DNA of 64,000 bases, counting the filler, from Stramenopiles sp. TOSAG23-3 (lineage: Eukaryota), in assembly GCA_900128585.1 (NCBI GenBank). It is 9 parts of 9 records of this genome, joined end to end, with 100 filler letters (N's around TTAATTAATTAA, not from the genome) between each part and the next. Parts side by side here need not be neighbours in the genome. Positions count along the whole stretch, not along the records: positions 28,949 to 36,066 come from LT643202.1; 8 more parts are not named here. The stretch is one strand, 5' to 3'. Shown here one piece after another: positions 5,301-36,066 of the stretch (the stretch's first letter is position 1; each line of letters opens with the position of its first letter). A program made the translations under genes and the position numbers. The notes under the pieces were generated by a model. That model was not told where the DNA came from. It did not search any database and worked only from the letters and a program-made list of their open reading frames with translations.

Positions 5301-5913
5301 CCGCGCAGGGCGGTACAAGAGCATTCTGAAACTCTTGAAAGAGGGTTTGGACGTGGACGCGCGAGAGCCTGGCACGGGAGACACTATGCTGATGTCGTCC
5401 GTTGCGTCTGGGAACCCTATGGTGGTGAAGACGTTGTTGCGCCGAGGAGCAAAGGTCAATGCACGGAACAACCGGGGGTGGACGGCGCTGCACTGCGCCG
5501 TGGGGTCGGACGTGCCTCAGCCCGAAATTACCAATATTTTGATGGACAATGGCGCCAAGCTGGAGGGAAGGGACGCGATGGGCGTCACACCGCTGCAGTT
5601 GGCGGTTGAGCAAGCCTCCGACGACATCATTTGCCGGTTGATCGAAGGGGGTGCGGACATAAAGACACAGGACGACTACGGGCGTTCCGTCATGCACAGG
5701 GTAGCGGCGGTCGGTGACAAAGCAACGACGGATCTGATTTTGACTCTCGGTGCGCAGTCCATGCTCAACGTCCCGGATGTGGACGGCAGATGCCCTGCCT
5801 CGTACGCGGAAAGGCATGACCAGTTTGAGTTTCTCAAAATTTTGCAGAGTAAAGGGGCCATCATGGAAACGAAGGACATTTATTCCCCCAACAGCAGCTT
5901 GGGCAAAAAGTGA
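2314..5913 (+). CDS. Coiled-coil + leucine-rich-repeat + ankyrin-repeat protein (~1200 aa)
   Basis: First ATG at 2314. N-terminal heptad coiled coil, RI-like LRRs (INLSFNGI, VDLRGNRIG, VDLSGNDV) and C-terminal ankyrin repeats (GDTMLM, GWTALHCA, GVTPLQLA, GRSVMH). Confidence 0.85.
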   Translation: MFHRSPKKPSKEVQELQKKCATLQTELDLYTEKSESFERSLEKANAEHIAAENRETETQAKLAQVQQLYMEEKNKFTKLKEEEDSSTSQLQERIESLQKDSNQLASLKIENVRLKEQLSGLEKQEAKPAADDNNDSKFSRIKAELERKYEEKIVSLENELDQAGEDNHRMATEIQSLQEVAKGTVAMEMKLKAEEYEHKLLEQMEKSYKIAQRVQDEKVQREEVELTLERTREQMKSATQRAVDLTRVIEQERKNVRRLEIALERSKEHRIVYRKPSFSGAAGESEEDYDDGYSDNDFEDEDAGAGGPESNAGTSTTSQRKKKGGGSTRVEDDNTRDGKQKKKKSTKSKKKKLKRARSMSVSVRGKTDLEDSSHLAKTLEGKLKKARGKNVALFRRFADIKRARDAAETRDVAKSEQLMALSNHLEKMMALLRAEAAAKASAQEAVIDLEDQLAEAKAKTVRVLEEHAEEARAKKDEARRETMLAKQLELMDEKFNGLMRTHNFLRSKTEKEQKKLNTALHEMSDKLYFQTKRNDGMHAAKQNIFNNFLRIVQNFRIFNQLPLPSEVKMPQEHLKHKNWGVNHMHFDLQDCKLRDDGALAFINAFNSYAIEQARADVELDEVMVANKRQIESGIGLDWTRPVNKVIGALSLGKPQVTFSINLSFNGITDRDNGAVIRTLCRSLVASNKISEVDLRGNRIGRTGLRMILDALQYNRTIKAVDLSGNDVTDAHLTEYLNDSARAADKMPDLTLIDEPGRMKKQKIPSFGSGSAHGPQARLFRRNNTGDNRPSSAPPAPGRSAAAPFRVDTVLGKVQGPDSAQPAEKLQIKFPPRMSAVSAVQRVITDSMTKVVAKNPFRKPKKREDAIDSTPLRVKQVDKENGAESAQRSTALSAVNALRPKTAGNVLQKSASVKSNIRERRRLPPKRPISAETHRRMGLKPGEKERREAEARRKKEAAEKKRIAEEMPAVTEVQEGERPKFGGQYASEIHWHAFARARAGRYKSILKLLKEGLDVDAREPGTGDTMLMSSVASGNPMVVKTLLRRGAKVNARNNRGWTALHCAVGSDVPQPEITNILMDNGAKLEGRDAMGVTPLQLAVEQASDDIICRLIEGGADIKTQDDYGRSVMHRVAAVGDKATTDLILTLGAQSMLNVPDVDGRCPASYAERHDQFEFLKILQSKGAIMETKDIYSPNSSLGKK

Positions 5914-6116
5914 CAAACACCACCTCTGAAGACGTAAAAAGTTCTTATACGATATTTTGTAAAGTGTTTTATCATTTTCATTGTAATAGGTAGACAAACA
6001 TAAGGTGCATATTTCATTTTTCAATAGCTTGATGTATCACTTGGTCCCATTTTTATCCTCTGTGTGTGTTCCTCAGCAGGGCAGACTCAGAGAAATAATA
6101 ATTTTTTGTACTTTTT

Positions 6117-28948: not shown

Positions 28949-28978
28949 TATGTGAGTACATAACTATTTTACTCGTAG

Positions 28979-29106
28979 CTTCTTCTTCTTTTTTCTTCTT
29001 CTTCTTCTTCTTCTTCTTCTTCTTCTTTCTTCTTCTTTTTTCTGCTTCTTCTTCTTCTTTCTTCTTCTTTCTTCTTCTTTCTTCTTCTTTTTTCTTCTTC
29101 TTCTTC
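28979..29106. repeat. (TTC)n imperfect microsatellite
   Basis: Visible tandem run. Confidence 0.9.
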
Positions 29107-29745
29107 TAAATTAAAAAAAGTTCGAAGAACAAAAAGCAAAATAAAAGCGAAGTATTATTGGAATTATACTTCCATACACAGGATGCCTAATAAATCCAAT
29201 TAAAAGAATACGAAGAATATTTAATAAGTATAAAAGAGAAGGAAATGACACACACATACATAAACACACCATACTATCCAAAACTACCGTGCTTCTTCCC
29301 TCCTTGATCGATCCTTGATTTAAAATAAAATAAAATAGATTTTTTTGTTTTGTTTGTCATGTTGGTCCAGCTGCTGCTGTTGGTGTGTTGATCCTTCGGT
29401 AGTAAATATGAATACGCTTCCTCGTATTTATTAGATACTCCGGACTCCGGACTCCGGTTGTTTTGTTTTGTTTTGTTTTATTTAGGAGGAGAGGTTGAAG
29501 GATGGATCGATAATTTATTAATAATAACACAAAAATAATAAAATACTGTAGGTGGTGTGTAAAAAAAATTATAATAATATATAATACAATGATAAAAATA
29601 CGTGTTTGAACAATACGTGGTAAAAAAAATCTGCGTGTCGTATCGCTTCGTCAATATTTTCGGTTCTTTCGTTTTCCGCGTGTGTGTTATGACAGAGAAG
29701 ATATATATATATATATTTATATAATTTAAAAAAGAGATACTACAA

Positions 29746-30738
29746 ATGTCAAACCTGCCAGTCTCGGACTCGTTGCGGGGTCTGTTTGCTACCGCGTGCC
29801 AGGGGGGAGTGCGTGCTGTGAAAGCGAAGATCGAGGGGGAAACTATTGTGCCATTCGCATCGGATCCTACGGTTCCAGTGAAAGGAAGTTCGGAGGAAGA
29901 TTTTCAAGTGTTGGTGGAAGATGTGGCGTCCGATAAGTCCCCACGTTACTATCTGTACTGCTTGGACGGGAACGGCGAAGAGTTCATTCTGATAGCGTTT
30001 GTCCCGGAGGACTCGAACGTCCGTGACAAAATGCTGTACGCCTCGTCGCACACTGCGTTGGTGCGCCAACTTGGCCCAGACAAGTTTAAAAGCGAATGGT
30101 ACTGCAACGATGCCAGCGAACTGGCGTACAAAGGACTCATAGAACAACTTCGACACGACGAGACCGAAGCCCCTTTGACAGAGCAGGAGAAGTATGCGAA
30201 AAAAGAGCTCGAAGACGCGGTAGGGTTGGAGCAAAGCACCGGTATGATCTCGGGATCGCTTCCGTTCCAACCCACGAAGGAGCTGCTGGGCTCGTTGGAA
30301 CGGTTCAAGTCGAACGAAGTGAACTTTTTGGAGATCAAAGTGGAAGACAACGAGGACTTGGGGCTCGTCTCGGCTTTGAGTGTATCCAATGAATCAGAAA
30401 TCGATACCAATATCAAAGCAGACGACGGCCGCTTTTACGTGATCAAGTACAAACCAACTGCAGCGGACGGGAAGGTGTTTTTTGTGTTTTGCTGCCCGGA
30501 CGCCGTGTCCATAAAGACTCGAATGATTTTGGCCACCGTCAAAGGAACTGCTGTTGACATTTTTAAATCGAACGGTATCGAGTTCGCCAAAACCCTGGAG
30601 CTGTCGGACACAGATGTGCGCTCAGAGCTGGACAGCGAGGTGAAGTTGATGACAGAAACGCGCGAACTGACAAACAAAACTGCGTTCGCAAAACCGAAAC
30701 GCCCAGGACGCGGGAAAAGGAGGATGATCAAGAAGTAG
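29746..30738 (+). CDS. TWF1: Twinfilin (two ADF-H domains + capping-protein-binding tail)
   Basis: FVPEDSNVRDKMLYASS in ADF-H 1, FVFCCPDAVSIKTRMILAT in ADF-H 2, tail FAKPKRPGRGKRRM. Confidence 0.92.
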   Translation: MSNLPVSDSLRGLFATACQGGVRAVKAKIEGETIVPFASDPTVPVKGSSEEDFQVLVEDVASDKSPRYYLYCLDGNGEEFILIAFVPEDSNVRDKMLYASSHTALVRQLGPDKFKSEWYCNDASELAYKGLIEQLRHDETEAPLTEQEKYAKKELEDAVGLEQSTGMISGSLPFQPTKELLGSLERFKSNEVNFLEIKVEDNEDLGLVSALSVSNESEIDTNIKADDGRFYVIKYKPTAADGKVFFVFCCPDAVSIKTRMILATVKGTAVDIFKSNGIEFAKTLELSDTDVRSELDSEVKLMTETRELTNKTAFAKPKRPGRGKRRMIKK

Positions 30739-30860
30739 GATGAGAGAGCGGGCATGGTACGGGCGTTTGCCGTGGGCATCTCGGTGCCTGGATTGGCAGA
30801 GCGTTGTATGTAAAGCATGTACACAAAGTACAACGTATCCGAGAAGTGCAAAGATAAAAA

Positions 30861-30912
30861 AAAACAAATTATATAGTATGTTTTAAGACTCTCATTTTAA
30901 ATCAATTACTAT
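30861..30912 (+). repeat. Short dispersed AT-rich repeat (copy of 20221-20284)
   Basis: AAACAAATTATATAGTATGTTTTAAGACTCTCATTTTAAATCAATTACTAT. Confidence 0.8.
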
Positions 30913-31061
30913 CTTGCAAAGATAATATACTGATGTACTACACGGAAACCCGTAAGAATCACAATTCCAACAATTTATAATGTCATCCACCGCGTTTACA
31001 CCAAATTGTGAACAATTCCGCGAACAAAGGCCTGTTTTGTCCAATGTACCGTTACAGCCCT

Positions 31062-31640
31062 TCATAATACACGACGTCCCCTGTGGTACGGGAGTGATAA
31101 GCCGTTGTGCGCCATTGCCTCAATGCATGCTAGGAATAGACAGTGTCCGTCTCTCGGGACGTCCATTACCCGATAGCCCTGGGGGGCATGACTAGGCGGC
31201 CTTGGCTTTGGTGATTCCAGTGATTTCCGCGTTGATAAATACAGGTCCCCGATCTCCATCAGGGTGTCCTCTGCTGCAAAATTCCTGATGTTCACGTCGG
31301 TGCATATTTCCATGCGGCATTGTGTCAGCCCCACGTGTAGGATGGCAATGTACCAGTGATAGTTTTGTACGTTGATCGGCAAGATGATTGACCGAAGTTG
31401 TGCCGTCCTTGCCTCCTTTGAGCGGCGCCACAGTGCTCTCCATAAACGGTCTGTTCGTTCTGGCCCTGTTATTTGCGATAGTAGCGTATTGAATACGTAC
31501 TGACCTGTGGGCGGTTTGTACTGAAGTGCGTTAAGCGAGAGATGGATGGCGTCCCCAGATAGGTACTGGTCTGGCCGGAGTGTGGAGAGTGCCTTGTGCT
31601 TGTCTTGCTCTGCTACCGTTTTGCCGGCGCTGATTTTAAA
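31062..31640 (-). pseudogene. Ulp1/C48-type protease fragment fused to an OTU-like Cys-box fragment; no ATG upstream of the Ulp1 motifs
   Basis: Frame extended upstream of the ORF track: LSTLRPDQYLSGDAIHLSLNAL...YVFNTLL...IILPINVQNYHWYIAIL (Ulp1 N-half with catalytic His), then YRVMDVPRDGHCLFLAC (OTU-type DGxCLF), then an early stop. Confidence 0.65.
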
Positions 31641-31745
31641 CCAAAGAATATATAATATAGATATCGTTTTTGATTTGACTAATTTGAATTATATCCTTTC
31701 TTACTTTGTATACTGGCTTTATCTTTAACTTTCTCTGCTCTAATT

Positions 31746-32270
31746 TTAGGAACTTGTTAGCAAGCGTTTCATTGCAGCACTAGGAACATCGGGGGATATG
31801 AGTTCATCGTCGGGCAAATTTGACAGTTTATCCTGGAAGAAAGGTAGCTCTGACTGCTTTATTCTCTTAAACTTCTTACGGATACATTCTTTCTTTGCTG
31901 CTTTTATCGCCACCGCACGGTCACCGCTCGATACAGTGCAGTAGAATTTACAAAAGTAATGTTCAAAGTACAACTTCTGATTCTCCAGTTCGGTCATGGC
32001 GTTCAAATATTCACGAACATAATCTTTGCAGGACTGAAGAAACCTTTCGGCGTTTTGTTCGCTTTCGTCACAGCTCTCGCTCCATTCTTCAAACTCGGAC
32101 AACACTATGTCAAACATGGTACTTCTATCACCGCCTTTACTTTCTTCGAACAATCGACATTTTGATTTCCTCTTCTCGAACAATGCATTGGTTTCGTCCC
32201 TTATCCTTCGGTCCTCTTTTCTCTTCTCGGCCCGCTCCCTCTCCTTTTCCGCCTTTTCTTCCGCCGTCAT
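31746..32270 (-). CDS. Charged helical ORF (174 aa), possibly the frameshifted C-terminus of the upstream helicase
   Basis: Starts 13 nt after the helicase stop; the frame reads RKKRREMTAEEK across that stop. Confidence 0.55.
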   Translation of the reverse strand: MTAEEKAEKERERAEKRKEDRRIRDETNALFEKRKSKCRLFEESKGGDRSTMFDIVLSEFEEWSESCDESEQNAERFLQSCKDYVREYLNAMTELENQKLYFEHYFCKFYCTVSSGDRAVAIKAAKKECIRKKFKRIKQSELPFFQDKLSNLPDDELISPDVPSAAMKRLLTSS

Positions 32271-32283
32271 CTCCCTTCTCTTC

Positions 32284-35200
32284 TTACGTGCACTCGTTCA
32301 GCTCGCTTCGGGCAAACATCTGGGCCCCGCCCTCCTCCTTCAATCGCTGCAACCATTTCGTTAAGTTTTCCCGTGCTTTTCCGGGGCTAAACTCGGCAAG
32401 CTTCTTCGCGCTTGCAGGAAATTCTCCGTCCACTGCAGCGTCCGAAATTTGTCCTTTTCGTCGAATACGGTTCCAGTCTAGATCGTCTTCCGAATAACAT
32501 TGCGAATCAGACCCTTCTTTTCGGACGTACGTCATTGGAATAATTATTCGAACTTTTTCGTCCTGCCCGATTCGTAACAGGCGCCCCCTTAGTTGCTTGT
32601 ACTCGGCGTGTGTCATTGGTAGAAGGTTGATGATCATGGTGTGGCACCCTTCTTGAAGGTCGTCGACTCCCGTTGCTACTGCTTGAGACCCGATCATGAC
32701 GTCGTACTCTCCTGCGATGAATTTTGTTTTGTACTGGTCGCGCTTGTTTGCGTTGGCCCCTGTGTACGTGCACACATTTAAGCCCGCACCTTTAAGCCCG
32801 TCAAGGAGAGTTTTCAGCACACCACCCCCGTAATTGTGCGTGTAAACGAGGACGCGTTCCTTGCGTGCTTTGCATGCTAAGCACTCTTCCACAACACGCC
32901 CTAGCTTTGCTTTCGTTCGAGCAAGGGCACTCTCCAGTCGAGTTGGGTTTCGTAATGAACCGTTTCGTTTTCGCTTTTGTTTCGTCGCGCCTTTGTCGCT
33001 CTTCTCTATTTCATTATACATGTGCATGTACTCCTGCGTTGCGTCGATTCGTTCGTTGGCGCCCAACCCTTCCACTGGCTTTGCACCGACGTATTCGGAC
33101 AAAAATCGGACGCCGTGAATATGGAGTTCACGGTGCACTGCCATAACATCGTCCAGTGTTGGTTTGTTCGGGCAGTTCAAGCGGCTGAAATCTTTGCCCG
33201 ATACGATACATAGCAAGCTTTGGGCCTCTTTCAGATTATTCACTACTGGGGTGGCGGTAAGCCCGAGGGTACGAATCTTCTTGTTTGCTTTGCGCGCCCG
33301 AGTCACAACATTTAGTACAACTTCTCTCCGTCTGCTCAAGTAACCGTCTTTCAGTTTCAAAGCCTTCTCTGCTTCAATCGAATCGCCTAATTCTTCGTCG
33401 ATTTCTTTGCCGTGCGCGCTTTCCTCGTCGTCGGAGTCGGCTGCTTCGACGCGTCCACTGCTGGGATTCTTTCGAAGCTTGACCATGTGCAGCTCGTCCA
33501 AGACAATCATGTCGAGGGATCCGTTCATTTGAGTGAGCAAGTTGTACATTTTATTTTGCGAGTTTGGCTTGGACAGCTTAGCGTAGTTGATTATAACGAC
33601 TCTCGGGCGCGTTCGTGTCTCCGATGCCCAATTGACCTTCCCGTCGGACGGTAATTTTTTCAAAACAATGACCTCGAAAACACCGCTAAAGGCCGCTTCG
33701 ATCTTTACTTTCCACTGCTTTGCAACGCTCAGGGGGCATATCACAACAGTCGTTCGACACCCAAGGTGGGCCATGCTGAGAACGGCCGATAACGTCTTCC
33801 CGCTTCCCGTGTCGGACCAATTTCCCAGCCCCGGGCAACCTTCCTCCTTGAGCCGCGATGCCACGAGTAATTGCATCAACGTCGGCGGCGCGTCTGCACG
33901 ATCGTTATCCGTGAACGTGTACCCGTCTGGAAGGTTGTCGCCAAGGGCTTTTGCGGCGTCGTACTGTTGTAGAAACAACGATCGAGTGAGGCCTACGTAG
34001 GTGTGGGCGTCGGCTGCTACCTTATACTCCCGTGCTGCCTGCACGGTCTCCCGCTCGGTTTCTTTATGCAATGCACTTTTCCACAATTTTGCAACAGCCG
34101 AGTGTTTGAGGAATTCGGCTGCCCAGTTGTCTGCTGTGCGGCGAGTGGTTGAGTATTTTGCCAGTGCTGTCAGGCTATGGTCAAGGGTTTGCAATGTGGT
34201 GTGGGTGGATTGGGACTGTGGTGATTGGCCAAGCGAAGACTGTTCTTGGGCAGTAGAAGGGTTTGTGTTGGCCGGGGTGGTCTGGTCGTTCGATGCAGCC
34301 GAGCCTTGCGACGGCTCCGGCAAGGACAGGCTATCGATTGCATCGTCCGGGTCTTCGCCGGCGTTTACTTTCTCGATGATGGCTTCGCACACTCCTCGCT
34401 CGCCGTTGGCGAATTTTCTTACCTCGTCATGGGGCACTCTGTGAAGGCCTTTGAGGAGTGAAACGCCCATGCTGTGGCTGGAGGAGACTCCGGTCTGGTG
34501 AAATATCGTGTGGAGCTCGGCCTGGTTGAGCTGCAAACGGTCGGCCTCGTCTAGAAGGGACTTGACAAGGGCGCGAAGCCGGGGAATGGTCCATCCGGAG
34601 CAGGCAGTGCAGTTGGTGCCGCCGTTGACCCATGACTGAATTTTTAGGGTATACGGTTGGTTATGTGTTGAGCATTTCCATCCAACTACAGTAGCAGATC
34701 CTGTCAGTTTGTTTTCCACAACCTCTTTTGTTAGATTGTTGTTTATGTTGTGTTGAGATGTAGGATCGAATTCGTTTTCAAAGCGAGTTTTAATGGCCTC
34801 GTCGGCGTCCTTGATTTTTGGATTAGTTGATCGTTTGGCTCGTCTCTCTTGTCTGCACTTGGGGCAATTTATTTGTTTCGCCCAACTTTGAATCTGTTGC
34901 TCGCACGTTTCGTTATGTGTTGAGCATTTCCATCCAACTATAGTGTTAGATCCTGTCGTTAAGTTTTCCACATCCTCTTTCGTTAGATTGCTTTCCATGT
35001 TGTGTTTTGACGTAGGATTGAATTCGTTTTCAAAGCGAGTTTTAATGGTCTCGTCGGCGTTCTTGATTTGTGGGTTACTTGATCGTTTGGCCCGTCTCTC
35101 TTGTTTGCACTTGGGGCACTTTATTCCATTTTCCGCCCAACCTTGAATCTGTTGCTCGCACGTTTCGTTATGTGTTGGGCATTTCCATCCAACTACAGTA

Positions 35201-36066
35201 GCAGATCCTGTCGTTAAGTTTTCCACATCCTCTTTCGTTATATTGTTGTTTATGTTGTGTTGAGATGCAGGATCGAATTCGTTTTCAAAGCGAGTTTTAA
35301 TGGTCTCGTCGGCATTCTTGATTTGTGGCTTAAATGATCGTTTGGCATGTCTCTCTTGTTTGCACTGAAGGCACTTTATTCTAGATCTCACCCACTCCAT
35401 AATCGATTTTTCCGATTTTTCGCCATGTCTTGGGCATTTCCACCCAACTTTTATAGTGTTAGATCCTGTCGTCATGTTTCCAACAATCTCTTTTGTTAAT
35501 CCATTCTTGATATTGTGTTCTGACGTAGGATCATATTCGTTTTCAAAAAGGGTTTGGATGTCTTTTGAAGCATTCTTAATTTTTGGACGACTTAATCTTT
35601 TGGCTCGCTTCTCTTGTTTGCACTTAGAGCACGTAACTCCTCGGTCCACCCAATGCTGAATCTTTTTTTCAAACTTTTCGCCGTGTCTTGGGCATTTCCA
35701 TCCAACTATAACATTAGACCCTACCGATGTGTTTGCAATGCTCTCTTTTGTTAATCCATTTTTGATATTGTGTTCTGACGTAGGATCATATTCGTTTTCA
35801 AAACGGAGTTGGATCTCTTTTGAAGCATTTTTGATTTGTGGGACACCTGATGTTTTGGATCGCTTCTCATGCCTGCACTTAGAGCACTGTATTCCATATT
35901 TTACCCAACCCCTAATCATTTGCTCACACATTTCACCGTGTCTTGGGCATTTCCACCCAACTTTTATAGTGTGAGACCCTGTCGTCATGTTTCCAACAAT
36001 CTCTTTTGTTAATCCATTCTTGATATTGTGTTCTGACGTAGGATCATATTCCTTTTCAAAGCGGAG
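32284..36066 (-). CDS. Tandem zinc-ribbon (DUF4379-like) repeat protein fused to a superfamily-2 (SNF2/ResIII-like) helicase/ATPase; 5' truncated
   Basis: Frame is open to the contig edge at 36066. Six ~85-aa units with GS...VGWKCxxH...I..W...CxxC. Helicase motifs: I GNWSDTGSGKT, Ia VICPLS, II IVLDELH, III GLTATP, V ATGVDDLQ, VI QLRGRLLRIGQ. Confidence 0.88.
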   Translation of the reverse strand, partial: LRFEKEYDPTSEHNIKNGLTKEIVGNMTTGSHTIKVGWKCPRHGEMCEQMIRGWVKYGIQCSKCRHEKRSKTSGVPQIKNASKEIQLRFENEYDPTSEHNIKNGLTKESIANTSVGSNVIVGWKCPRHGEKFEKKIQHWVDRGVTCSKCKQEKRAKRLSRPKIKNASKDIQTLFENEYDPTSEHNIKNGLTKEIVGNMTTGSNTIKVGWKCPRHGEKSEKSIMEWVRSRIKCLQCKQERHAKRSFKPQIKNADETIKTRFENEFDPASQHNINNNITKEDVENLTTGSATVVGWKCPTHNETCEQQIQGWAENGIKCPKCKQERRAKRSSNPQIKNADETIKTRFENEFNPTSKHNMESNLTKEDVENLTTGSNTIVGWKCSTHNETCEQQIQSWAKQINCPKCRQERRAKRSTNPKIKDADEAIKTRFENEFDPTSQHNINNNLTKEVVENKLTGSATVVGWKCSTHNQPYTLKIQSWVNGGTNCTACSGWTIPRLRALVKSLLDEADRLQLNQAELHTIFHQTGVSSSHSMGVSLLKGLHRVPHDEVRKFANGERGVCEAIIEKVNAGEDPDDAIDSLSLPEPSQGSAASNDQTTPANTNPSTAQEQSSLGQSPQSQSTHTTLQTLDHSLTALAKYSTTRRTADNWAAEFLKHSAVAKLWKSALHKETERETVQAAREYKVAADAHTYVGLTRSLFLQQYDAAKALGDNLPDGYTFTDNDRADAPPTLMQLLVASRLKEEGCPGLGNWSDTGSGKTLSAVLSMAHLGCRTTVVICPLSVAKQWKVKIEAAFSGVFEVIVLKKLPSDGKVNWASETRTRPRVVIINYAKLSKPNSQNKMYNLLTQMNGSLDMIVLDELHMVKLRKNPSSGRVEAADSDDEESAHGKEIDEELGDSIEAEKALKLKDGYLSRRREVVLNVVTRARKANKKIRTLGLTATPVVNNLKEAQSLLCIVSGKDFSRLNCPNKPTLDDVMAVHRELHIHGVRFLSEYVGAKPVEGLGANERIDATQEYMHMYNEIEKSDKGATKQKRKRNGSLRNPTRLESALARTKAKLGRVVEECLACKARKERVLVYTHNYGGGVLKTLLDGLKGAGLNVCTYTGANANKRDQYKTKFIAGEYDVMIGSQAVATGVDDLQEGCHTMIINLLPMTHAEYKQLRGRLLRIGQDEKVRIIIPMTYVRKEGSDSQCYSEDDLDWNRIRRKGQISDAAVDGEFPASAKKLAEFSPGKARENLTKWLQRLKEEGGAQMFARSELNECT
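34600..36066 (-). repeat. Coding tandem repeat, ~255-bp unit, at least 6 copies
   Basis: Recurrent blocks such as GGGCATTTCCATCCAAC and GGATCATATTCGTTTTCAAA; the contig breaks inside the array. Confidence 0.9.

What the first reader, a model, noticed from the sequence alone, without database searches (positions are those of the whole stretch)
32284..36066. Modular zinc-ribbon repeat array fused to an intact SF2 helicase: candidate repeat-guided DNA-targeting ATPase
Seen: at least six ~85-aa units with a constant scaffold (IKNA...FENE[YF]DP...N..LTKE.V.N..TGS...VGWKCxxH). The segment between the zinc ligands varies strongly (EQMIRGWVKYG, EKKIQHWVDRG, EKSIMEWVRSR, EQQIQGWAENG, EQQIQSWAKQ, TLKIQSWVNGG). 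A helical linker and a helicase with recognisable motifs I-III, V and VI follow. Established: WxCxxH...CxxC repeats resemble the DUF4379 zinc ribbon, mostly known from bacterial and viral proteins. From memory, unverified, the GNWSxTGxGKTLSA / LxATPVxNNL helicase type looks bacterial. Inference: a horizontally acquired, repeat-expanding nucleic-acid recognition array coupled to a translocase, serving defence or a mobile element. The near-identical DNA units indicate recent expansion.
Basis: partly seen in the sequence, partly recalled or inferred. Interest (0 to 1): 0.8.

Follow-up and report, generated by a model that had tools for sequence, protein, structure and literature searches.

The report
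Zinc-module array on an SNF2-type motor
An uncultured marine protist carries a gene for a DNA-motor protein with at least six zinc-binding modules in a row; the design is common in bacteria and large viruses but uncharacterised, so this copy is a real yet fairly ordinary eukaryotic offshoot.

Summary
Window 34600-36066 (minus strand) encodes six complete 84-86-aa units, each a Pfam DUF4379 zinc module plus a basic spacer. A connector and an SNF2-fold ATPase with intact motifs follow.

The units are not near-identical: nucleotide identity is 64-89%. The window is a chain of unrelated ~7.1-kb contigs, and the gene runs off its contig end inside the array. The stop at 32284 belongs to this assembly only. 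Contigs of three other runs carry 32 extra bases that keep the frame open through the next ORF, to 31746.

The design is not unique. The helicase has 1104 representative relatives. Of the top 40, 21 carry DUF4379 modules and 23 carry an Rrp8-like methyltransferase tail. Arrays of 5-7 modules are common in bacteria, archaea and large viral contigs.

Prokaryotic copies have no conserved partner gene, and known defence genes are more frequent beside them than in control regions. The eukaryote-like copies, one from a haptophyte, form one well-supported clade that lacks the methyltransferase.

Best reading: an old, ameliorated acquisition of a nucleic-acid-targeted SNF2 translocase. Its target and its function in the protist are inferred, not shown.

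The parts
34600..36066 (-). Array of six complete DUF4379 zinc modules. Each has W-x-C-x2-H ... C-x2-C and, in units 1-5, a ~25-aa K/R-rich spacer. Unit frames: u1 35803-36060, u2 35548-35802, u3 35290-35547, u4 35035-35289, u5 34783-35034, u6 34528-34782. The frame is open at the contig end, so more units may exist upstream.
   Evidence: Pfam PF14311 E 5.4e-15; invariant W/C/C/C over 60 units; AF2 unit model pLDDT 84; 6sga_Fd Z 6.7
34072..34599 (-). Family-specific connector. It begins with the G-W that directly follows the last CxxC and includes a low-complexity S/Q/T-rich stretch (34282-34311).
   Evidence: The consensus 'C-x2-C-x3-W-T...R-x-F-x2-S-L...E-L' is shared with bacterial relatives. 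Last units of bacterial arrays also end in G-W.
32289..34071 (-). SNF2-fold SF2 ATPase core. Motif I 33793-33807, motif II 33487-33498, acidic insert 33418-33447, motif III 33247-33258, motif VI 32563-32595.
   Evidence: Pfam SNF2-rel_dom 3.2e-13 and Helicase_C 6.9e-9; phrog_62 2e-35; invariant columns; AF2 pLDDT 74.7; all 49 listed Foldseek PDB hits are SNF2-family ATPases
32284..32288 (-). Assembly-specific frame break. Contigs of runs X3, X4 and X15 carry 32 further bases between 32288 and 32289. With them the frame runs on; without them a TAA stop follows at 32284-32286.
   Evidence: tables 5, 5c and 8; P0001 (99% identical) reads through with 11 extra residues
31746..32283 (-). C-terminal tail of about 190 aa in the intact form. 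It starts with a basic cluster (PPPRKKRRE in P0001). No recognised domain. Annotated here as a separate 174-aa ORF (31746-32270).
   Evidence: no Pfam family at E<=0.01 and none above its cut-off at E<=1; no Atlas hit; no similarity to the tails of P0010 or P0011

Best explanation
This is a gene of an uncultured marine protist. It is intact in other samples and present in RNA libraries. It belongs to a eukaryote-like clade of a large, undescribed family of single-protein systems from bacteria, archaea and large viruses. The family layout is: an array of small nucleic-acid-binding modules (usually DUF4379 zinc modules), then a conserved connector, then an SNF2-type motor, then usually a C-terminal effector (an Rrp8-like methyltransferase).

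Shown: the domain identities, the intact ATPase motifs, the family and its architecture, the single eukaryote-like clade without the methyltransferase, and the continuous reading frame in other samples.

Inferred: the zinc modules hold or aim the protein on double-stranded DNA, as the related modules of homing endonucleases are thought to do. The SNF2 motor then translocates along the duplex to displace or remodel what is bound there. In this lineage the methyltransferase has been replaced by a ~190-aa tail that begins with a nuclear-localisation-like basic cluster, so the protein would act on nuclear DNA. The ancestral role in prokaryotes is probably defence or conflict. The present role in the protist is unknown.
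For: Domains: Pfam DUF4379, SNF2-rel_dom and Helicase_C all exceed their cut-offs. The unit model matches solved DUF4379 proteins only (Z 6.7, 5.8, 5.3, 5.1; next hit 2.4). The helicase model matches SNF2 ATPases in all 49 listed rows, E 9e-16 to 1e-12.

Family: 1104 representatives at E<=1e-3 and 251 at E<=1e-30. Among the top 40, DUF4379 occurs in 21, Methyltransf_8 in 23, INT_rpt in 3 and Sigma70_r4 in 3. Of 253 members with a full core, 101 have at least one strict zinc motif, 24 have six and 15 have seven. Of the same 253, 162 have a methyltransferase-like tail.

Distribution: 277 of 398 candidate stretches were confirmed in GTDB genomes across many phyla, and 46 of 100 in IMG/VR contigs.

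Eukaryote-like clade: 12 of 253 rows, support 100, and 6 of 58 rows, SH-aLRT 100. It includes a Pavlovales protein. Of the 13 long non-methyltransferase tails, 11 belong to this clade.

Gene state: the frame is continuous in 3 of 3 runs that cover the site. Contigs of a polyA and a PCR metatranscriptome library lie on the gene. GC and GC3 of the helicase core (0.520/0.585) resemble twinfilin (0.519/0.639).

Prokaryotic context: only the gene itself is shared among 103 loci, and it is single-copy in 5 of 5 genomes. PADLOC hits occur in 23 of 119 neighbouring ORFs against 10 of 129 control ORFs, p=0.009. At E<=1e-40 the counts are 14 against 2, p=0.001.

DNA-binding lead: related CapR/DUF4379/DUF723 arrays sit on Vsr-type homing endonucleases (PMC12350094, passages) and on a marseillevirus restriction-like endonuclease (PMC5513546, passage).
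Against: No experiment shows what DUF4379 binds. The only solved examples sit in kinetoplastid mitoribosomes, and one of them contacts rRNA (PMC8784144, passages). The usual effector domain is most like the rRNA methyltransferase RRP8 (2zfu, 1e-35).

The window's modules differ from the family consensus. They have W where a near-invariant R stands, a shorter Cys-His knuckle, no H-E-W tryptophan, and an added basic spacer.

The defence-island control is small. It covers 5 genomes, and many PADLOC models also match housekeeping relatives. Counted per locus the difference is not significant: 12 of 18 against 7 of 20, p=0.10.

The tree is unrooted, so the direction of transfer is not shown. The nuclear-localisation reading rests on one basic motif recognised by eye. 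RNA-library contigs do not prove transcription. Among the 30 listed population differences that I scored, 13 are synonymous and 17 are not (122 further differences were not listed). That is only mild evidence of constraint.
Confidence: 0.55

Rival explanations
1. The family acts on RNA or ribonucleoprotein. The zinc modules grip structured RNA such as rRNA, the motor remodels the particle, and the ancestral effector methylates RNA. The protist copy would be an RNP remodeller.
For: All solved DUF4379 folds that match the unit model are mitoribosome or assembly-factor chains. mt-SAF33 binds immature h22/h23 of 9S rRNA (PMC8784144, passages). The family's methyltransferase tail matches human RRP8 at 1e-35.
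Against: The motor is SNF2-fold in all 49 listed structural hits, and SNF2 enzymes are duplex-DNA translocases (established knowledge). The same module types decorate DNA endonucleases (PMC12350094, PMC5513546). An HNH nuclease ends the sister lineage P0003/P0004. The other N-terminal modules in the family are ones I take from recall to be DNA-binding, such as Sigma70_r4 and INT_rpt.
Confidence: 0.15
2. It is the working gene of a selfish or mobile element in the protist genome, for example a homing-type or transposon-borne helicase, rather than a domesticated host gene.
For: Distribution is sporadic across all domains and large viruses. The closest lineage carries HNH. The array diverges much faster than the motor between two variants: 17 differences in 90 aa against 9 in 770 aa. 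A stretch just downstream (31089-31650) is matched mainly by contigs about 90% alike. GC3 of the array (0.417) differs from the rest of the gene.
Against: No nuclease, integrase or transposase domain is present in this protein. No second copy lies in the 64-kb window. No clear terminal repeats were found. The gene is single-copy in the bacterial genomes checked. The helicase is 99% conserved between variants.
Confidence: 0.12
3. The gene is bacterial or viral DNA wrongly joined to a eukaryotic contig, or a very recent transfer.
For: The assembly is highly fragmented. The helicase type is prokaryotic or viral.
Against: Composition matches twinfilin. Acidic and S/Q-rich low-complexity inserts are present. 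The nearest relatives are a haptophyte protein, a EukProt entry and unnamed environmental proteins, which together form a separate clade on a stem of 0.44-0.50. Contigs of a polyA-selected library lie on the gene. No bacterial genome gave more than 33% identity.
Confidence: 0.05
4. It is a decaying pseudogene, as the premature stop in this assembly suggests.
For: In the window the frame breaks at 32284, which splits off the tail.
Against: The 32 missing bases are present in 3 of 3 other runs that cover the site and in P0001. A 3.7-kb frame is open. All invariant ATPase residues are kept.
Confidence: 0.05

Closest known systems
Defence-associated bacterial SNF2-like helicases (DISARM DrmD, BREX BrxH, Zorya ZorD, Dpd DpdE)
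   Same: SNF2-type motor. Weak profile matches to DrmD (E 4e-10), BrxHI and DrmA, and ZorD appears among the fold hits. Prokaryotic relatives lie beside defence genes.
   Different: Scores are far below the family cut-offs (38.7 against 610 bits). There are no partner genes. The N-terminal zinc-module array, the connector and the methyltransferase tail are not features of those families as I recall them (from recall, not from a call).
Homing or restriction-like endonucleases with tandem CapR/DUF4379/DUF723 modules (phage group II intron HEGs, PMC12350094; marseillevirus ORF, PMC5513546)
   Same: Three to five or more tandem ~60-aa zinc modules of the same Pfam family, placed N-terminal to an enzymatic domain and proposed there to be DNA-binding. 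phrog_681 'endonuclease' matches the array at 6e-18.
   Different: The catalytic partner here is an SNF2 motor, not a Vsr/EDxHD nuclease. This protein has no nuclease domain.
Eukaryotic SNF2 chromatin remodellers (Snf2/Sth1, ISWI, Chd1, Ino80, DDM1, Rad54, Mot1, CSB)
   Same: Same two-lobe ATPase fold (TM about 0.5, probability 1.00) and the same helicase motifs.
   Different: Only 12-18% identity. phmmer against the PDB finds nothing at E<=0.01. No subfamily stands out. The accessory domains are unrelated. The nearest sequence relatives are prokaryotic or viral.
Kinetoplastid mitoribosomal DUF4379 proteins (mt-SAF33 and others; 6sga_Fd, 6hiv_DS, 7ane_at, 6yxx_E2)
   Same: The only solved structures with the fold of the repeat unit (Z 5.1-6.7).
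   Different: Those are ribosomal or assembly-factor proteins, not fused to a motor as far as the entry titles show (domain counts not checked here), and one of them binds rRNA.

Membership tests
Pfam DUF4379 (PF14311), probable treble-clef zinc finger | Profile score above the gathering cut-off | tested here: met
   55.8 bits against 24.5, with 3 stretches passing on their own
Pfam DUF4379 (PF14311), probable treble-clef zinc finger | Ligand pattern W-x-C...H...C-x2-C in every unit | tested here: met
   Present in all 6 units. W35, C37, C58 and C61 are invariant over 60 aligned units from the window and 15 bacterial or viral loci.
Pfam DUF4379 (PF14311), probable treble-clef zinc finger | Fold like solved family members | tested here: met
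   AF2 unit model pLDDT 84. 6sga_Fd Z 6.7, rmsd 2.2 A over 62 residues. The four hits with Z>=5 are all kinetoplastid mitoribosome chains (6sga_Fd is deposited as a DUF4379 protein) and the next hit is 2.4. Foldseek E-values are weak, 0.08-0.26.
Pfam DUF4379 (PF14311), probable treble-clef zinc finger | Binds zinc | not testable with these tools
   Needs metal analysis of purified protein
SNF2 family of SF2 ATPases | SNF2-related N-lobe and Helicase_C profiles above cut-off | tested here: met
   49.9 against 24.9 bits, but only profile positions 25-141 of 290 are covered. Helicase_C scores 36.4 against 23.5.
SNF2 family of SF2 ATPases | Catalytic motifs I, II, III and VI intact | tested here: met
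   GSGKT, DELH, TATP and QLRGRLLRIGQ, on invariant family columns
SNF2 family of SF2 ATPases | SNF2-type two-lobe fold | tested here: met
   All 49 listed PDB hits are SNF2-family ATPases, E 9e-16 to 1e-12, TM about 0.45-0.54. Model pLDDT 74.7.
SNF2 family of SF2 ATPases | DNA-dependent ATPase and duplex translocation | not testable with these tools
   Biochemical assay needed
Conserved eukaryotic SNF2 subfamilies (Rad54, ISWI, CHD, Ino80, Mot1 and others) | Closest sequence relatives belong to one such subfamily | tested here: not met
   The best 150 of 1104 hits are the zinc-array/methyltransferase helicase family. No PDB chain at E<=0.01 by phmmer. The profile reaches Fft3 and CHD1L only at about 1e-7.
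DISARM DrmD | NCBIfam equivalog cut-off | tested here: not met
   38.7 bits against a cut-off of 610
DUF4379/CapR-array homing endonucleases | C-terminal EDxHD/Vsr or other nuclease domain | tested here: not met
   No nuclease family in Pfam for the helicase ORF or the tail. HNH is present only in relatives P0003 and P0004.
Undescribed 'zinc-array - connector - SNF2-like motor - methyltransferase' family (defined here) | Full-length match to the family core profile, including the connector that starts with G-W after the last CxxC | tested here: met
   The window is one of 253 rows with a full core. Connector consensus. Bacterial last units also end in G-W.
Undescribed 'zinc-array - connector - SNF2-like motor - methyltransferase' family (defined here) | C-terminal Methyltransf_8 domain | tested here: not met
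   The tail has no methyltransferase match. The domain is absent from the whole eukaryote-like clade.

The most novel reading that the evidence does not exclude
Across this family the zinc modules may form a natural modular code. Each module would read a few base pairs, so the array would steer an SNF2 motor carrying a swappable effector (methyltransferase, HNH, or none) to chosen DNA sites. That would be a targeting principle comparable to TALE or C2H2 arrays. The protist copy would be a domesticated, rapidly re-tuned reader, which would fit an array that changes about 15 times faster than the motor between variants.
Probability: 0.08. Interest if true: 0.85.

Novelty: new variant of a known kind. 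Interest (0 to 1): 0.42.

Why it matters
The parts are known: SNF2 motors, and DUF4379 modules as found on homing endonucleases. Their combination is not. It is a family of more than a thousand sequence clusters in bacteria, archaea and large viruses, and I found no description of it in the searched literature and no curated model for it. Prokaryotic members look like single-gene defence or conflict systems.

The window shows that an offshoot without the methyltransferase lives on, apparently intact and represented in RNA libraries, in marine protists and at least one haptophyte. It adds a case of a prokaryote-type conflict gene kept in eukaryotes. It also points to a tractable family in which to test whether tandem treble-clef modules can target a motor to nucleic acid. 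The window's gene itself is an incomplete, ordinary member of that family.

Tried and rejected
- No whole genome is held for the window, so paralogues and repeat-number variation could not be counted. Within the 64-kb window there is no second copy.
- tblastn against 50,697 isolated phage records found nothing.
- An NCLDV capsid search in 5 viral records found nothing, and the control also found nothing anywhere, so it is uninformative. The type of the large viral contigs stays open. Their neighbour genes include deoxyhypusine synthase, R2K ATP-grasp, radical SAM, DNA ligase and UvdE.
- Rfam on the contig found nothing.
- An OTU-protease-like motif that I thought I saw in ORFs at 31062-31443 has no Pfam support and was dropped.
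- The tail (ORF174) has no Pfam family above cut-off, no Atlas hit, and no similarity to the tails of P0010 or P0011.
- A search with the array alone, restricted to near-length proteins, gave no hit at E<=1e-5.
- Twinfilin junction: among the listed pieces of the four runs, none with few mismatches spans 30884 to 31693. One X3 contig joins 30906 to 31649 with only 31 letters on one side, at an imperfect 16-nt direct repeat. The twinfilin-helicase link is therefore neither confirmed nor refuted by independent data.
- Positive selection on the segment between the ligands: mean dN/dS is 0.65 and no pair is clearly above 1. Not supported.
- Literature searches found no description of the fusion: 'DUF4379' (7 papers); 'treble clef / SNF2 / methyltransferase / zinc ribbon'; 'Methyltransf_8 + helicase' (0 papers); 'PF14311 / PF05148 / INT_rpt / integrase repeat'.


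Full report
**Setting.** The 64-kb window is not one stretch of genome. N runs recur about every 7.2 kb in the form N44-TTAATTAATTAA-N44, and the pieces between them shrink steadily from 7145 to 7100 bases. It is therefore a chain of unplaced contigs sorted by length. The finding lies on the piece 28949-36066. That piece holds:
- a twinfilin gene (29746-30738, plus strand, two ADF-H domains);
- an AT-rich spacer;
- a 174-aa ORF (31746-32270, minus strand);
- the long minus-strand frame of the finding, open from 32284 up to the contig end at 36066.

Everything beyond 36066 belongs to another contig. No whole genome is held for the window.

**The repeats.** Translating from 36066 gives six complete units of 84-86 aa, with GWKC anchors at residues 37, 122, 208, 293, 378 and 462. 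Before them come the last two residues of an earlier spacer, so the array is cut by the contig end and may be longer. TRF finds period 255, 5.5 copies and 80% matches.

The units are not near-identical. Pairwise nucleotide identity is 64-89% (best pair u4/u5), dS is 0.11-1.15 and dN/dS is 0.23-1.09. The stretch between the His and the CxxC is the most variable part (mean dN 0.55), but its dN/dS is 0.65. That indicates relaxed constraint, not demonstrated positive selection. The same columns are about as variable in 54 units from bacterial and viral relatives.

**What the units are.** Pfam places them in DUF4379, 'probable treble clef zinc finger' (55.8 bits against 24.5). In an alignment of the six units with 54 units from relatives, W35, C37, C58 and C61 are invariant.

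An AlphaFold model of one unit, built on that alignment, has pLDDT 84. It shows a beta-hairpin followed by helices, the last one starting at the CxxC. Against about 48,000 PDB representatives, the only matches with Z>=5 are four kinetoplastid mitoribosome chains that carry DUF4379: 6sga_Fd at 6.7 (rmsd 2.2 A over 62 residues), 6hiv_DS at 5.8, 7ane_at at 5.3 and 6yxx_E2 at 5.1. The next hit, a PHD finger, scores 2.4. Foldseek ranks the same chains first, with weak E-values.

The window's units depart from the family consensus. The Cys-His knuckle is shorter. The H-E-W tryptophan is missing. W stands where a near-invariant R does. Units 1-5 carry a ~25-aa K/R-rich spacer that bacterial arrays lack.

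**The motor.** Downstream come a connector and an ATPase. The ATPase scores above cut-off for SNF2-rel_dom (N-lobe only) and Helicase_C, and 2e-35 to the generic phage family phrog_62. Motifs I, II, III and VI are intact and sit on invariant family columns.

By sequence alone no PDB chain matches at E<=0.01. A family profile reaches SNF2 remodellers only at about 1e-7. An AlphaFold model of the 595-aa core (pLDDT 74.7, pTM 0.73) matches SNF2-family ATPases in all 49 listed Foldseek rows: Sth1, DDM1, Ino80, SMARCAD1, Mot1, ISWI, Chd1, Rad54, CSB and ZorD. These have E 9e-16 to 1e-12, TM about 0.5 and 12-18% identity. The fold is SNF2-type, but the protein belongs to none of the conserved eukaryotic subfamilies. 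DrmD, BrxH and similar models match weakly and far below cut-off.

**True gene end.** A 99%-identical environmental protein, P0001, reads past the window's stop through 11 extra residues into the 174-aa ORF. I laid contigs of four public runs on 28949-34700. Runs X3 and X4 (DNA) and X15 (an RNA library) each have a contig carrying the same 32 extra bases between 32288 and 32289. The fourth run, X19, has no listed piece over that site.

With those bases the frame is continuous from the array to 31746. The window's stop is therefore a deletion or an error of this assembly. The restored junction encodes a basic cluster (PPPRKKRRE in P0001). I read it, by eye and from general knowledge only, as a possible nuclear localisation signal. 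The ~190-aa tail has no recognisable domain.

Contigs of a polyA-selected metatranscriptome (X19) and a PCR metatranscriptome (X15) lie on the helicase with 0-5 mismatches each. This is consistent with expression but does not prove it.

**Host.** The best relatives of the twinfilin are unnamed environmental and EukProt proteins at 53-55% identity. The best named one is fungal at 33%. Runs X4, X15 and X19, which hold the stretch, are labelled marine or marine eukaryotic metagenomes; X3 carries no organism label. I take the host to be an uncultured marine protist of unresolved position. GC and GC3 of the helicase core (0.520/0.585) are close to twinfilin (0.519/0.639). The array is lower (0.419/0.417).

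**The family.** A full HMMER scan of 1.84 billion representatives with the 595-aa core gives 1104 hits at E<=1e-3, 547 at 1e-10 and 251 at 1e-30. Among representatives P0009-P0048, DUF4379 occurs in 21 of 40, a C-terminal Methyltransf_8 domain in 23 of 40, and INT_rpt and Sigma70_r4 in 3 each. The methyltransferase matches human RRP8 (2zfu) at 1e-35.

Pattern scans confirmed 277 of 398 candidate stretches in GTDB species genomes. The phyla include Planctomycetota, Verrucomicrobiota, Chlamydiota, Cyanobacteriota, Myxococcota, Chloroflexota and Nitrososphaerota, among others. They also confirmed 46 of 100 candidates in IMG/VR contigs of up to 379 kb. The viral copies have the same architecture.

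I collected 253 proteins with a complete core. Of these:
- 101 have at least one strict zinc motif N-terminal to the motor;
- 24 have six such motifs, 15 have seven, and the maximum is 14;
- 162 have a methyltransferase-like tail.

In bacterial arrays the last module ends in C-x2-C-x2-G-W, as here, and runs into the same connector. The 'zinc-array fused to a helicase' is therefore the ancestral design of a large family, not an invention of this genome.

**Eukaryote-like clade.** In a FastTree of all 253 cores the window sits in a 12-row clade with support 100 and a stem of 0.50. The clade contains:
- P0001;
- P0009;
- the P0010 cluster (six rows);
- P0011, a Pavlovales haptophyte protein;
- P0003 and P0004, which end in an HNH nuclease.

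An IQ-TREE quick search on 58 rows gives the six distinct lineages as one side of a branch with SH-aLRT 100. The window pairs with the HNH pair at 93, and unnamed metagenome proteins are the nearest outsiders. I left out P0001 and five cluster mates of P0010 as near-duplicates, and I sampled 10 viral, 22 bacterial and 18 metagenomic rows from the rest. The tree is unrooted.

Eleven of the 13 long tails without a methyltransferase belong to this clade. P0002 (EukProt, 66-71% identical motor) has DUF4116 and ankyrin repeats in place of the array.

**Prokaryotic context.** Clustering all ORFs of 100 aa or more from 103 loci finds nothing shared except the gene itself and its antisense frames. The gene is single-copy in 5 of 5 genomes.

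PADLOC at E<=1e-10 hits 23 of 119 neighbouring ORFs in 12 of 18 loci. Examples are Dsr1 directly adjacent in L065, a type I R-M system with NucC and SoFic around the gene in L104, a CBASS phospholipase in L113, and PD-T4-6 in L067.

As a control I took 20 regions lying 100-400 kb away in five of the same genomes. There, 10 of 129 ORFs in 7 of 20 regions hit. Fisher's exact test gives p=0.009 for ORFs, p=0.001 at E<=1e-40 (14 against 2), and p=0.10 counted per locus. The control is small, and several PADLOC models also match housekeeping proteins. I call this a moderate defence-island association.

**Mechanism.** Shown: domain identities, intact ATPase motifs, the conserved architecture, and the continuous frame.

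Inferred: the modules tether or aim the protein on nucleic acid. I favour duplex DNA for three reasons. SNF2 motors track duplex DNA (established knowledge). The same module types precede Vsr-type homing endonucleases, where they are proposed to be NUMOD-like DNA binders (PMC12350094, passages), and precede a marseillevirus restriction-like endonuclease (PMC5513546, passage). The sister lineage ends in HNH.

Against this, the solved DUF4379 proteins sit on mitoribosomes, one of them on rRNA (PMC8784144, passages), and the usual effector resembles an rRNA methyltransferase. An RNA or RNP target therefore remains a serious rival.

Between the window and P0001 the last module and its spacer differ at 17 of 90 residues, against 9 of 770 in the rest of the protein. 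This fits fast change or gene conversion in the array, or mixing of units during metagenome assembly.

**Novelty.** I found no paper describing the fusion. I saw listings and abstracts, plus the cited passages of four papers. Supplements were not consulted. No NCBIfam or PADLOC model reaches its cut-off. The family is an undescribed variant of SNF2-type conflict helicases. The window's gene is an incomplete member of its eukaryote-like branch. The claims of uniqueness, recent expansion and 'repeat-guided targeting' are respectively wrong, wrong and untested.

Noticed in passing
window 7146-57775 (N runs about every 7.2 kb): The window is a chain of ~7.1-kb contigs in falling order of length, joined by N44-TTAATTAATTAA-N44 linkers. 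Neighbouring pieces are not genomic neighbours.
   Followed up: yes
window 30856-31650: Between twinfilin and the helicase tail, 30869-31060 draws very many metagenome contigs (summed word depth about 5900-6000). 31089-31650 is matched mostly by contigs about 90% alike. One X3 contig skips 30907-31648 at an imperfect 16-nt direct repeat (30891 and 31630). This could be low complexity plus a multi-copy insertion, an indel polymorphism, or a mapping artefact. ORFs there have no Pfam hit.
   Followed up: partly
window 34528-34800 compared with P0001: Between two variants whose motors are 99% identical, the last zinc module and its spacer differ at 17 of 90 residues, against 9 of 770 elsewhere. 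Several of the underlying DNA changes are synonymous.
   Followed up: partly
window 34528-36060: GC3 of the array (0.417) is well below that of the helicase core (0.585) and twinfilin (0.639).
   Followed up: no
P0002 (EukProt relative): Its motor is 66-71% identical, but DUF4116 and ankyrin repeats replace the zinc array, and the protein ends in a bile-acid symporter-like fragment. This is either a real domain swap or a fused gene model.
   Followed up: no
L065:8042-11749 and L104:198-10980: In a Parachlamydiaceae MAG a full-length Dsr1 defence gene lies directly beside the family member. In a Verrucomicrobiae MAG the family member sits between a type I methyltransferase plus NucC and a type I restriction subunit.
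   Followed up: partly
G007:C1:936159-937604 (locus L097): The Parachlamydiaceae copy shows one in-frame TAA inside the helicase match, so it may be broken.
   Followed up: no
L001, L003 (IMG/VR contigs of 379 and 266 kb): Besides the helicase, neighbouring ORFs also carry INT_rpt modules, and one carries an ART-PolyVal domain. The N-terminal module types seem to be shared among several genes of these large viruses.
   Followed up: no
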